A DNA stretch of 64,000 bases from Escherichia coli (lineage in GTDB: Bacteria > Pseudomonadota > Gammaproteobacteria > Enterobacterales > Enterobacteriaceae), in assembly GCF_003790525.1 (NCBI RefSeq), contig NZ_CP033635.1. One strand, written 5' to 3'. Each line of letters starts with the position of its first letter. Positions within the stretch are counted from its first letter, which is position 1. The position numbers are program-made. Shown one piece after another: positions 37,201 through 40,200 of the stretch.

Positions 37201-40200
37201 CAGATGGCGAAGAAATTGTGTCCATGGTGGTGATTGACGTTCCCCGCGCCCCTGCTGAACTGGAGCGCATCGAGGAGGCAGGCAACAAGACGGAAAACCA
37301 TACCGCGCTATGGGGGTGCATCCGTTCACGCACACAGAACGGCGACAAGTGCACGATCCCGCTGTTACGTGATGACATGAAACGGCTTGGGTATGACGTG
37401 AAAAATATGCGGCGATGGTTAGCCAAACTGGAAAAAGACGCCGTGATTTACATTGATGGTGATGATGTAGGACCACTGTAAAAAGTGAGTGGCAAAAGTG
37501 AGTAATGGTGAGGTTTTTACAAAATATTAACACAATTACTCACTTTCTCACCTGTATACATGCTCAAAAGTGAGCAGTGAAAAAACACTTATGAAACATG
37601 CACATACAAAACACAAAAATCTCAAGTGAGACGAAGCGAGACGCTTTAAAAAGTGAGTAGTAAAAGTGAGAGATGGTGAGCAATGAATAAAAATCGAACA
37701 GCAGGACAAAATACCGAAGGTAAATTTATGAACACTGAAATTGAAACACTGAGCATATCAACTGCCCTTCCTGGCTGGTGGGCTAAGTTCAAAGACGACG
37801 ACGGCACGGAATGGTATAGCCCAATTGCTGCATGGGCGCTTTGTGAGATCCACCATTTCGGTACCAGGGATACTTACCGCGAAATCTTACCCGTGCTGGC
37901 CAGTGAGCTGGGCATGAGTCCGCATAGTCCTGATGAGGGAATGTGCGAGTGCCTTTATCTGCCGGATAAGAAGTTTGTTCACTGTGGTGAATCGATGGTA
38001 TTTGCCTGGTATCCGGTTAACGACAGCAGCAATAGCGGTACTCTGGAGTAAATCATGAAGGTAAACCACAAAAAGACAGATCACCGCGCCATTGACCTTA
38101 CAGAGCACTGGCTGAGGGTGGCGATAAAAATCATCGACCGCAACACGGGGGAAGGATACGCGAAAGCGCATCCCGAACTGATTAGCGCATTCATGAGCAC
38201 AGCGGCGGCAAACTTTGCCACGCTGACAGAACGGGAGATTGCCGAAGCGGAACAGGTAACAACCATCAACGTTAAAACCGGAGAGCAGACAGCATGACAG
38301 CACAGATAGCAGCTTACGGGCGGCTGGTGGACGACCCGCAGGTAAAACAGACCAGCAAGGGCACACCGATGACGCTGGCACGTATGGCGGTATCGCTGCC
38401 ATGCAGCCAGGCACAGGACGGACAGGCGACGTTATGGCTATCGGTCATCGCATTTGGTAAGCAGGCCGACTTCCTGGCTAAACATCAAAAAGGCGACGTT
38501 GCCAGCGTATCCGGCACGATGCAGGTCAGCCAGTGGACCGGACAGAACGGGGAAACGCGGCAGGGTTATCAGGTCATTGCAGACAGCGTAATCAGTGCCC
38601 GTGCTGCACGTCCTGGCGGGAGCAGACGCACAACCACAGGCACACAGGCTAATCAGCCACCAGCGGGAGGCGATGACCCTTACGGTGATGATATTCCGTT
38701 CTGAGGGGGTGACGATGGTACATGACCGCATAGCGGAAGAACTGGAGGCTAAAGGGCTGTACCGGAGAGCGGCGGCACGTTGGGCTGATGTTATGTGGCT
38801 GGTGAGCACTGACAAGGAACGCGAACAGGTGGCAAAGCGTCGCGCGGAATGTATCCGTAAGGCACAGAGGCCACCGGAGCCGCCGGATGATTTAGGCGCT
38901 CTGAAAAGGTCAGTTAATCGCACTGAAAAACAAATGGGGATAGCTGGTATTGGCAAAGCAATATGGCGCAACTACCCGCAGAAGTGAGCACACAGCCGGA
39001 GCAATCCGGCTTTTTTATGGGTCCTCCCGGTGGAGTGACCTGTCACGGGGCGGGAGCATCGCGGAAAAAGGCTGGTTTTTGCATTTTCATGGCGGCGGCA
39101 GCATGTGTGATAATTCATTGATAATTAAAAATTATTTCCGTTTTCACCTGTACAATTTTTTTTCTTCCCTGTCATTAGACCAGTTTGCAATTAATTGAAA
39201 TATATAAATAAATCAGTTTTTCACCTGCCTGGTGGAGTTGCCTGTGTCAAAACGCGTTCAGATGGCGGGATATTTATGCCGGATTTTTTCCGGCTTTTTT
39301 GTATCTGAATCTAATTAATCTGTTTTTATGATAAAAATATATTTATCTACCACTTTTATCGATCAATAATGTTTGTGGTTTAACCATTCAGGAGATTTTT
39401 AATGAGTAGCATCAATGACCTGAACACAGCTGACACAAACGGCGGATCCGTTCATCTGGACGCTAAAACAGTAATGCGCATCAAGCAGTACAGAATAGAT
39501 CACGCCGTTAATCTACCCGCGCAGCCATTGCCAGGTGTGGCGCAAATTGTCAGACACGCAGTTAACGCGTGGCTTGATAAGAATGGTTTTGCATCTGGGG
39601 GTGAGCAATGAATCGCTGGTACACCATTAAAGCGGCGGATGTTCGCGGAACGGCGGAGATATCCATCTATGAGGAAATTGGTGGCTTTGGTATTACCGCG
39701 AAGCAGTTCACGGAAGACCTGAAAGCCCTTGGCGATGTTTCACATATCAATCTGCGGATCCATTCACCAGGTGGCGACGTGTTTGAAGGTATCGCCATCT
39801 ATAACCTGCTACGGAATCATCCGGCAGACATTACGGTTTATATCGATGGCGTGGCGGCTTCAATGGCTTCGGTCGTCGCAATGGCTGGCGATCGCGTTGT
39901 TATGCCGGAGAACGCCATGATGATGATCCATAAGCCGTGGGGTATCTCTGGCGGAAATGCTGGCGATATGCGTGATTATGCTGATTTGCTGGATAAGGTG
40001 GAAACAGTGTTAATCCCTGCTTATGCCAGAAAAACAGGAAAATCAGCACAGGAAATTGCCGCCATGCTGGAAGATGAAACCTGGATGGACGGGAAAGAAT
40101 GCCTTAAGCACGGTTTTGCTGATGAATTGTTGCCATCTGTCAGAGCAATGGCGCGAATTGAATCGAAACGCACAGGAGATTTTTTACATATGCCGGAAAC

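What the first reader, a model, noticed from the sequence alone, without database searches (positions are those of the whole stretch)
37482..37682. Iteron-type origin immediately 3' of the Rep ATPase gene
At least six direct copies of AAGTGAG, plus GGTGAG variants and inverted TCACTT copies, are packed into a 200-bp AT-rich stretch right after the stop codon of the 468-aa RecA-fold ATPase. This is the classic rep-then-iteron layout of satellite and plasmid origins and supports autonomous replication after excision.
Basis: partly seen in the sequence, partly recalled or inferred. Interest (0 to 1): 0.5.

Follow-up and report, generated by a model that had tools for sequence, protein, structure and literature searches.

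The report
Replication origin of a phage satellite island
The repeat cluster is real and is almost certainly the replication origin of an 11-kb phage-inducible chromosomal island in Escherichia, a known kind of origin, and one amino acid of the neighbouring helicase tracks one base of the repeat.

Summary
Observation confirmed. Seven of the window's 15 exact AAGTGAG sites lie in 37483-37670, against 0.026 expected (P~1e-15). Variants bring the total to 11 sites.

Layout: two 3-copy sets at the outer ends; between them two inverted copies, a conserved TGTATACA, one single copy, a 49-bp AT-rich spacer and two single copies.

The region starts 1 nt after the stop of a 468-aa RepA/AAA_25 helicase. 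It lies in an int-alpA-rep-ssb-perC-capsid island in the roxA(ycfD)-phoQ site, the site used by EcCICFT073. This is the rep-then-iterons-flanking-AT layout published for PICIs (PMC6092414).

New comparative evidence: in 10 E. coli islands and 72 loci from other Enterobacterales the layout is kept, but the core changes at all copies at once (GTGAG, GTGGG, GTGCG). The core is fully predicted by one residue, Rep 444. N goes with A, H or K with G, S with C, with no discordant case among 63 clear loci. Residue 444 caps the recognition helix of a confidently modelled C-terminal winged helix.

Best reading: the Rep winged helix binds the iterons, the AT spacer melts, and the helicase loads itself. 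Replication and binding were not tested. New member of a known kind; modest interest.

The parts
36075..37481 (+). rep: 468-aa initiator-helicase with three modules. N-terminal domain of unknown function (residues 1-~126). RepA/AAA_25 RecA-fold motor (residues 146-317+; Walker A GASGSYKS at 171-178). C-terminal winged helix (residues ~405-468).
   Evidence: Pfam AAA_25 E = 5.8e-42. phrog_2850 full length, E = 3.8e-188. PGAP name 'helicase RepA family protein' on the 99% identical TUM1886 copy. Nearest solved structure is RSF1010 RepA, 1g8y, E = 3.9e-5. Mosaic of three modules.
37287..37478 (+). Part of rep encoding the C-terminal winged-helix domain: H1 407-421, H2 428-437, recognition helix H3 445-454, beta-hairpin wing 458-467. 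Inferred iteron-binding domain.
   Evidence: AlphaFold2 on a 44-sequence alignment: pLDDT 89.8, pTM 0.80. The listed top-50 Foldseek PDB hits are mainly winged-helix domains (ArsR, MarR, Fur, LexA, ORC, DnaD-N), TM up to 0.74 but none with E<=0.001.
37404..37406 (+). Codon AAT for Asn444, the N-cap of the recognition helix. This is the specificity residue that co-varies with base 4 of the iteron core GTGNG.
   Evidence: It is the only one of 471 columns separating GAG from GGG islands. Contingency: KN->GTGAG 25/25, KH->GTGGG 8/8, KK->GTGGG 25/25, KS->GTGCG 5/5. It is the only column with normalised mutual information 1.00.
37483..37512 (+). Left iteron triad: AAGTGAG (37483), AAGTGAG (37496), GGTGAG (37507). 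Start-to-start spacing is 13 bp between the two AAGTGAG copies.
   Evidence: Conserved in position in all compared islands.
37539..37552 (-). Two inverted iterons, CTCACTT and CTCACC. Together with iteron 2 they form a 16-nt, 94% complementary inverted repeat (37495-37510 / 37531-37546).
   Evidence: The left half folds as an ssDNA hairpin, z = -5.1. These copies switch to CCCACTT/CCCAC in GGG-type islands.
37553..37560 (.). Conserved non-iteron palindrome TGTATACA (TGTATATA in relatives). Role unknown.
   Evidence: Near-invariant in the 10-island alignment. Present in nearly all the Xenorhabdus, Kosakonia, Serratia and other origins displayed; L035 has the variant GCATATATA.
37568..37574 (+). 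Single direct iteron AAGTGAG at the left edge of the AT-rich spacer.
37575..37623 (.). AT-rich spacer of 49 bp (30-bp AT profile across the central origin 70-73%), containing the conserved block ACTTATGAAACA. Inferred DNA-unwinding element.
   Evidence: [quoted passage not shown]
37624..37640 (+). Two direct iterons 10 bp apart: AAGTGAGACG and AAGCGAGACG. The second is AAGTGAG in TUM1886.
   Evidence: (D8).
37651..37680 (+). Right iteron triad: AAGTGAG (37651), AAGTGAG (37664), GGTGAG (37675).
32029..43086 (+). The host element, an ~11-kb PICI between roxA(ycfD) and phoQ. Gene order: int 32188-33438, alpA-like 33813-34001, Icd-like, DUF4222 35791-36078, rep, ori, ssb 38294-38704, PerC-like 38715-38987, prohead protease-MCP fusion 39608-41524. 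The att core GGACATAYTT is at 32029-32038 and 43077-43086.
   Evidence: The att core and ycfD-phoQ site are as listed for EcCICFT073 in the supplement of PMC6092414.

Best explanation
The 200-bp stretch is the replication origin (ori) of a phage-inducible chromosomal island (PICI).

Proposed mechanism: after helper-phage induction and excision, the island's Rep is made. Rep is a RepA/DnaB-like (SF4, RecA-fold) hexameric helicase with a C-terminal winged helix. The winged helices read the ~11 AAGTGAG-type iterons: six left of the 49-bp AT-rich spacer (a triad, an inverted pair and one single copy) and five to its right (two single copies and a triad). Asn444 at the start of the recognition helix contacts the A of GTGAG. 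Multimeric binding on both sides distorts and melts the AT-rich spacer, and the helicase loads itself there. No primase is encoded, so priming would depend on host DnaG or on the helper phage.

Shown here: the repeats, their enrichment, the conserved architecture, the concerted iteron switches, the one-residue-to-one-base covariation, and the winged-helix fold model.

Inferred, not shown: binding, melting, self-loading and autonomous replication.
For: 1. Statistics: 7 exact sites in 205 bp against 0.026 expected.
2. Context: int, alpA, Icd-like, DUF4222, rep, ssb, perC and capsid genes, all on one strand, ~11 kb, in the roxA/ycfD-phoQ site used by EcCICFT073.
3. [quoted passage not shown] It showed that EcCICFT073 rep-ori drives plasmid maintenance. 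SaPI Reps bind such iterons through a C-terminal winged helix and load themselves (PMC9371898).
4. Architecture: the order of elements is conserved in 10 E. coli islands and in other genera while the spacers diverge.
5. Concerted change: every copy, inverted ones included, reads GTGAG in six islands and GTGGG in four.
6. Covariation: Rep residue 444 is the only discriminating column of 471. Over 82 loci N->GTGAG 25/25, H->GTGGG 8/8, K->GTGGG 25/25, S->GTGCG 5/5, and normalised MI is 1.00 at that column only. The N/H switch occurs on two different helix backgrounds: GYEMK[N/H]FRRWLY and GYD[VT]K[N/H][ML][RK]RWLA.
7. Controls: the downstream ORF and the upstream DUF4222 gene have no discriminating column.
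8. Fold: the C-terminal 80 aa model as a winged helix (pLDDT 89.8) with residue 444 at the N-cap of H3.
9. Module linkage: Rep is mosaic and the iteron type follows the C-terminal module, not the N-terminal or motor modules.
10. No sigma-70 promoter or terminator pattern, no DnaA box and no IHF consensus in the stretch.
Against: - No experiment exists on this allele. The functional test in PMC6092414 used EcCICFT073, whose initiator shares only the N-terminal 126 aa with this Rep (47% identity) and whose iterons are TCTACC.
- The Rep C-terminus and the ori are physically adjacent, so some co-inheritance is expected from linkage alone. The number of independent switches is small: at least two N/H events in E. 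coli plus the between-genus classes.
- 16 of 82 loci showed no GTGNN word repeated four or more times within 260 bp downstream. Examples are L066 and L068, which have H at that position but no GTGGG cluster.
- Fold-search hits are generic, with no E <= 0.001. The full-length model was poor, pLDDT 51.
- No primase is encoded in the island, so truly autonomous replication needs host or helper functions.
Confidence: 0.85

Rival explanations
1. The repeats are operators. Rep, or another island protein, binds them only to regulate transcription of the downstream ssb-perC-capsid genes or to autoregulate, and replication starts elsewhere or does not occur.
For: The stretch lies inside a co-directional gene string, directly before the next ORF. 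Winged-helix proteins are typically transcription factors. Iteron-binding Reps of plasmids are known to autoregulate (general knowledge).
Against: No sigma-70-like promoter or terminator pattern in 36900-38300. Eleven sites in two sets around an AT-rich core, directly after a helicase gene, match the published PICI ori layout. The downstream gene content varies (an extra 107-aa ORF in the window and TUM1886) while the repeats do not.
Confidence: 0.07
2. The cluster is a packaging (cos/pac) or partition-type site recognised by a helper-phage or island protein other than Rep.
For: Satellites carry helper-specific packaging sites (PMC6739421 and PMC9026076). Repeated short binding sites also occur in cosB and in centromere-like sites.
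Against: The repeat core co-varies with a Rep residue, not with flanking genes. No IHF consensus site lies in it, whereas five of the window's ten lie in the 3' part of the island. A helper-phage cos-proximal sequence is found elsewhere in the island, at 39011-39092, 41549-41630 and 41860-41945. No parA/parB-type gene was identified among the island ORFs that were searched.
Confidence: 0.03
3. It is a decayed or inert relic: an origin-like sequence in an island that no longer replicates.
For: One iteron is degenerate here (AAGCGAG, against AAGTGAG in TUM1886). A related island (E110019) has a rep pseudogene. No complete E. coli genome carries at least 80% of this island.
Against: rep is intact at 468 aa with a complete Walker A motif, and is 99-100% identical to the TUM1886 protein. 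10 of 11 sites keep the G-GAG core positions (the AAGCGAG copy departs at one base). The architecture is under visible constraint across genera.
Confidence: 0.04

Closest known systems
Replication origins of Gram-negative PICIs (EcCICFT073 and relatives; Fillol-Salom et al. 2018, PMC6092414)
   Same: Same kind of element and the same chromosomal site (ycfD/roxA-phoQ, att core GGACATAYTT). The ori lies immediately 3' of the initiator gene. Two sets of short iterons flank an AT-rich region. The neighbours are the same (DUF4222 upstream; ssb and perC downstream).
   Different: The initiator is a 468-aa RepA/AAA_25 helicase rather than the 584-aa primase-family Pri-Rep of EcCICFT073. Only the N-terminal ~126 aa are homologous. 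The iterons are AAGTGAG rather than TCTACC. The paper mentions four Pri-Rep alleles, and this is probably one of them, but only the CFT073 replicon was tested.
SaPI Rep-ori (Staphylococcus aureus pathogenicity islands; Ubeda et al., Qiao et al. 2022, PMC9371898)
   Same: The ori is directly downstream of rep. It has 6-12 penta- or hexanucleotide iterons split by a central AT-rich region, with some copies inverted. A C-terminal winged helix reads the iterons, and the helicase loads itself.
   Different: SaPI Reps appear to be AAA+ (superfamily III clade) helicases, an attribution read from a passage whose subject is cut off. Here the motor is a RecA-fold RepA/DnaB-type (SF4) protein. It is therefore analogous, not homologous, and probably of opposite polarity.
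Satellite phage P4 alpha protein with ori/crr
   Same: A satellite of enterobacteria. One polypeptide combines a helicase with a C-terminal origin-binding domain that reads short repeated octamers (own knowledge; P4 is discussed).
   Different: P4 alpha carries a primase domain and an SF3-type helicase. Its ori and crr are two separated repeat regions, not a site abutting the gene's stop codon. There is no sequence similarity: P4 alpha did not appear in PDB sequence or fold hits.
IncQ plasmid RSF1010 RepA helicase (PDB 1g8y)
   Same: Closest solved relative of the motor domain (E = 3.9e-5, residues 155-320). The replicon is iteron-based.
   Different: In IncQ the iterons are bound by a separate initiator (RepC) and priming is done by RepB' (own knowledge). 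Here a winged helix is fused to the helicase and no primase or separate initiator is encoded.

Membership tests
PICI replication origin (rep-adjacent iteron ori) | Lies immediately 3' of the replication initiator gene | tested here: met
   The first iteron starts 1 nt after the rep stop codon at 37479-37481.
PICI replication origin (rep-adjacent iteron ori) | [quoted passage not shown] | tested here: met
   Triads at 37483-37512 and 37651-37680, further copies between them, and a 49-bp AT-rich spacer at 37575-37623.
PICI replication origin (rep-adjacent iteron ori) | Resides in a PICI: int plus alpA at the left end, one-directional transcription, ~10-15 kb, PICI-specific att site, no full phage structural or lysis set | tested here: met
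   int, alpA-like, Icd-like, rep, ssb, perC-like and capsid genes all on the + strand; ~11 kb; ycfD-phoQ site with core GGACATAYTT.
PICI replication origin (rep-adjacent iteron ori) | Iterons are bound specifically by the cognate Rep | tested here: inconclusive
Comparative support is strong: perfect residue-444-to-base covariation over 63 clear loci, and a winged-helix model.
PICI replication origin (rep-adjacent iteron ori) | The rep-ori segment drives replication | not testable with these tools
   Shown only for EcCICFT073, which has a different initiator allele.
Classical iteron plasmid origins (Rep_3 / WH1-WH2 initiators: pPS10, R6K, RK2, F) | Initiator of the Rep_3 type, with no helicase motor | tested here: not met
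   Pfam finds only AAA_25. The initiator is a helicase.
Classical iteron plasmid origins (Rep_3 / WH1-WH2 initiators: pPS10, R6K, RK2, F) | DnaA box(es) next to 17-22-bp iterons | tested here: not met
   No TTATNCACA with at most one mismatch inside 37482-37682, and window-wide counts are at chance. The iteron core is 7 bp.
P4-like satellite ori/crr with alpha protein | Primase-helicase alpha protein and two separated repeat regions | tested here: not met
   No primase-family hit on the rep product: Pfam finds only AAA_25 and NCBIfam only weak RadA/RadB matches, while PHROGs matches to primase-helicase families cover only the helicase region, residues ~150-390. One compact repeat region sits at the rep stop codon.
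RepA/DnaB-like SF4 helicases (Pfam AAA_25) | RecA-fold core with Walker A and B motifs matching the family profile | tested here: met
   AAA_25 E = 5.8e-42 over residues 146-317. RSF1010 RepA 1g8y E = 3.9e-5. GASGSYKS and LIVIDTL motifs are conserved.

The most novel reading that the evidence does not exclude
A one-residue, one-base specificity code governs a whole family of enterobacterial satellite replicons. The residue capping the Rep recognition helix (N, H, K or S at position 444) sets base 4 of the GTGNG iteron (A, G, G or C). Natural N<->H switches have been followed by conversion of all ~11 iterons. This creates mutually orthogonal replicons that could let related islands coexist, or avoid cross-talk, in one cell. 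The C-terminal-domain-plus-ori cassette recombines freely with different N-terminal, motor and morphogenesis modules.
Probability: 0.55. Interest if true: 0.45.

Novelty: new member of a known kind. Interest (0 to 1): 0.3.

Why it matters
The result marks the island as a probably replication-competent phage satellite sitting next to phoPQ. It places the origin precisely enough for cloning. It also provides a directly testable specificity determinant, Asn444 reading the A of AAGTGAG. Natural 'swap mutants' already exist, for example ETEC-2264 and Z1323CEC0013, which differ only by N/H at residue 444 within the 12-residue recognition-helix motif. This could be used to build orthogonal small replicons, or to predict which co-resident satellites compete for the same initiator. 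It does not change the general picture of PICI biology.

Tried and rejected
- Chance or low complexity: rejected by window-wide and local shuffles.
- Promoter or terminator reading: no pattern hits.
- DnaA-dependent or IHF-assisted plasmid-type origin: no boxes in the stretch.
- Structured RNA: no Rfam family in the whole island at gathering thresholds.
- Phage origin: the rep-ori segment has no meaningful match in 50,697 phage records. It has only three weak plasmid matches, so it is an island feature rather than a phage or plasmid one.
- Full-length AlphaFold model from 8 sequences: too poor to use (pLDDT 51). It was replaced by a C-terminal-domain model from 44 sequences.
- Search for a specific solved homologue of the C-terminal domain, such as P4 alpha or SaPI Rep: only generic winged-helix hits.
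- Linkage as the sole cause of the covariation: made less likely, because neither flanking gene has a discriminating column and Rep itself is mosaic. It is not fully excluded.
- Literature: only PMC6092414 describes Gram-negative PICI oris. Its iteron sequences are in a figure that is not held, so I could not check whether AAGTGAG is already drawn there.
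Full report
**1. The observation**

The stretch 37482-37682 was read directly. It holds:
- six direct exact AAGTGAG copies (37483, 37496, 37568, 37624, 37651, 37664);
- one exact inverted copy (37539-37545);
- two direct GGTGAG (37507, 37675) and one inverted GGTGAG (37547-37552);
- one AAGCGAG (37634).

Seven of the window's 15 exact sites lie in 188 bp. The rest of the window predicts 0.026 per 205 bp (Poisson P = 1.4e-15). None of 100,000 local shuffles reached seven; the maximum was three.

The copies are organised. Two 37-nt direct repeats (37476-37512 and 37644-37680, 86% identical) each carry a triad AAGTGAG-N6-AAGTGAG-N3-GGTGAG. Between them lie, in order, the inverted pair, a TGTATACA palindrome, one single copy, a 49-bp AT-rich spacer and two copies 10 bp apart.

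GC falls to 0.32-0.37, against 0.5-0.6 in the flanking genes. The first iteron begins 1 nt after the stop of the 468-aa ORF 36075-37481. Only the plural 'inverted TCACTT copies' is slightly generous, because there is one exact inverted copy.

**2. Context**

The 468-aa protein has a Pfam AAA_25 domain (residues 146-317, E = 5.8e-42). PGAP names the 99% identical copy in E. coli TUM1886 'helicase RepA family protein'. Its nearest solved relative is the RSF1010 RepA helicase, 1g8y.

The surrounding genes, all on the + strand, are:
- a tyrosine integrase (32188-33438);
- an AlpA-like excisionase/regulator (33813-34001);
- an Icd-like gene;
- DUF4222 (35791-36078);
- rep, then the repeats;
- two small ORFs;
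- ssb (38294-38704);
- a PerC-like gene;
- a prohead protease-major capsid fusion (39608-41524).

The element sits between roxA(ycfD) and phoQ. The decamer GGACATAYTT is present at both ends (32029-32038 and 43077-43086). Fillol-Salom et al. list that site and that core for the prototype Gram-negative PICI, EcCICFT073 (supplement of PMC6092414; CFT073 locus). The host element is therefore an ~11-kb PICI-type phage satellite in Escherichia.

**3. What is known about such regions**

PMC6092414 states that the region immediately 3' of the initiator gene is the origin in Gram-positive PICIs, and that Gram-negative PICIs show 'an organization and functionality identical'. [quoted passage not shown] A cloned EcCICFT073 rep-ori segment maintained a thermosensitive plasmid, and the rep and ori mutants did not.

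For SaPIs, Rep is a self-loading helicase. Its C-terminal winged helix reads 6-12 penta- or hexanucleotide iterons located directly after rep and split by a central AT-rich region (PMC9371898). The layout found here matches these descriptions element for element.

**4. Comparative test**

I fetched nine further E. coli islands whose rep is 73-99% identical at the DNA level. I also fetched 80 loci from other genomes, of which 72 from other Enterobacterales were analysed.

In the ten E. coli islands the 200-250 bp after rep align end to end with the same order of elements. The core differs between islands: AAGTGAG in six and AAGTGGG in four. The change occurs at every copy at once, including the inverted ones (CTCACTTTCTCACC becomes CCCACTTTCCCACC). 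Such concerted change is what a set of sites read by one protein is expected to show.

Aligning the ten Rep proteins, exactly one of 471 columns separates the two groups. It is residue 444, Asn with GAG and His with GGG, in the motif K-[N/H]-x-[R/K]-R-W-L. The switch is seen on two different helix backgrounds: GYEMK[N/H]FRRWLY and GYD[V/T]K[N/H][M/L][R/K]RWLA.

Across all 82 loci the rule holds without exception among the 63 with a clear repeat:

| Residues before the helix | Iteron core | Loci agreeing |
|---|---|---|
| KN | GTGAG | 25/25 (E. coli, Xenorhabdus) |
| KH | GTGGG | 8/8 |
| KK | GTGGG(GG) | 25/25 |
| KS | GTGCG(GC) | 5/5 |

A mutual-information scan over the last 330 Rep residues, using 48 non-redundant sequences, gives a normalised value of 1.00 at residue 444 only.

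Neither the downstream ORF nor the upstream DUF4222 gene has a discriminating column. Rep itself is mosaic. E110019 is 97-100% identical to the window in the N-terminal and motor modules but has a different C-terminus and GGG iterons. FWSEC0010 is only 44% and 69% identical in those modules but 96% identical in the C-terminus, and has GAG iterons. The C-terminal ~70 aa and the ori therefore travel as one specificity cassette.

The same architecture, with lineage-specific cores, is visible in Xenorhabdus, Trabulsiella, Kluyvera, Serratia, Prodigiosinella, Kosakonia, Rosenbergiella and Phytobacter.

**5. Structure**

The full-length model from eight sequences was poor (pLDDT 51). The C-terminal 80 residues, modelled with 44 sequences, are confident (pLDDT 89.8, pTM 0.80). 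They form a canonical winged helix: H1 407-421, H2 428-437, H3 445-454, and a beta hairpin at 458-467.

Residue 444 is the N-cap of the recognition helix H3. The invariant K443, R447, W448 and K451 lie on or next to that helix. Foldseek against the PDB returns mainly winged-helix domains (ArsR, MarR, Fur, LexA, ORC, DnaD-N), with TM up to 0.74 but no E <= 0.001. The pairings Asn with adenine and His or Lys with guanine are the commonest side-chain-to-base contacts (general knowledge). They fit the observed code, but this is inference.

**6. Mechanism proposed**

Rep hexamers use their winged helices to occupy the iterons: six sites to the left of the AT-rich spacer and five to its right. This distorts and melts the AT-rich 37575-37623, and the SF4 motor loads itself. 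Host DnaG or helper functions would prime, since the island encodes no primase.

The inverted copies give the left half a strong ssDNA hairpin potential (z = -5.1). This may or may not matter.

The stretch contains no sigma-70 promoter, terminator, DnaA box or IHF consensus. That argues against an operator reading or a classical DnaA-assisted plasmid origin.

**7. Comparison and limits**

The feature is a member of the published PICI-ori kind. It differs from the tested EcCICFT073 replicon. That island's initiator is a 584-aa primase-family protein sharing only the N-terminal 126 aa with this Rep (47% identity), and its ori carries TCTACC iterons.

It is analogous, not homologous, to SaPI Rep, which appears to have an AAA+ motor (an attribution read from a truncated passage), and to P4 alpha.

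Sixteen of 82 loci had no GTGNN word repeated at least four times within 260 bp. Some use ATGAG, which still has A at the variable position. Others, such as L066 and L068, remain unexplained.

Binding, melting and replication are untested. The covariation is not corrected for phylogeny, and the C-terminus and the ori are physically linked.

**8. Verdict**

The finding is a correct call of a known kind of element, a new member using the RepA-type allele. It comes with an additional, testable one-residue, one-base specificity rule. Interest is modest.

Noticed in passing
window 39011-39092 (+), 41549-41630 (+), 41860-41945 (-): An ~82-nt element is present three times, 85-93% alike, two direct and one inverted, bracketing the protease-capsid fusion gene. 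It is ~89-92% identical to a sequence 118-190 bp from the right (cos) end of lambdoid phages such as mEp460, just after the lysis genes. There is no Rfam hit and no significant RNA fold (z = -0.85). It may be a helper-phage cos-proximal mimic or a recombination joint for module exchange.
   Followed up: partly
window 36075-36452 (Rep residues 1-126); L090 5242-5634: The N-terminal ~126 aa of this RepA-type Rep are 47% identical to the N-terminus of the unrelated primase-family Pri-Rep of EcCICFT073. This shared domain of unknown function is joined to different motors. Rep is a three-module mosaic of N-domain, motor and winged helix, with two N-domain types only 44% identical.
   Followed up: partly
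window 37553-37560 and 37586-37597: Two non-iteron blocks in the origin are conserved: the palindrome TGTATACA (TGTATATA in most relatives, across genera) and ACTTATGAAACA (within E. coli islands). Their role is unknown. It could be bending, a priming signal or a host-factor site.
   Followed up: no
window 32163-32187 and 42979-43003 (within 75-nt imperfect repeats 32113-32187 / 42929-43003): A tandem GGTGTAGTTAAT GGTGTAGTTAAT occurs identically inside both ends of the island, well inside the GGACATAYTT att core. These are probably integrase arm-type binding sites.
   Followed up: no
window 39608-41524: The island carries a 638-aa ClpP-like prohead protease / major capsid fusion gene (NF045540, 907 bits) but no portal or terminase. 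TUM1886 has a 99% identical rep-ori joined to a different head module (separate capsid, decoration, connector and TerS genes) and sits in a different att site (tqsA). No complete E. coli genome carries at least 80% of this island. This indicates extensive module shuffling.
   Followed up: partly
window 39111, 41842, 42470, 42524, 43044: Five of the window's ten exact IHF consensus sites (WATCAANNNNTTR; 3.3 expected in the whole window) lie in or near the 3' 4 kb of the island, the last (43044) beyond the last ORF but inside the att core. None lies in the origin. This may relate to packaging or attP architecture.
   Followed up: no
L003 (E. coli E110019) 1511-3145: This island's rep is annotated as a pseudogene with an internal stop. 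Its left iteron set is expanded to five direct copies by tandem duplication of a 13-bp unit, AAAAGTGGGCGTT.
   Followed up: no
L066, L068, L069, L070, L026, L040 and others (260 bp after rep): Sixteen of 82 related loci show no GTGNN word repeated at least four times after rep. L012, L018 and L021 use AAATGAG instead. L066 and L068 (His at the key position) have no recognisable cluster. The origin there may be displaced, diverged or lost.
   Followed up: no
window 34054-34890: The 278-aa ORF listed mechanically is probably over-extended. Only its last ~50 residues match the Icd-like family, and in related islands PGAP calls a short Icd-like gene plus separate small ORFs there.
   Followed up: no
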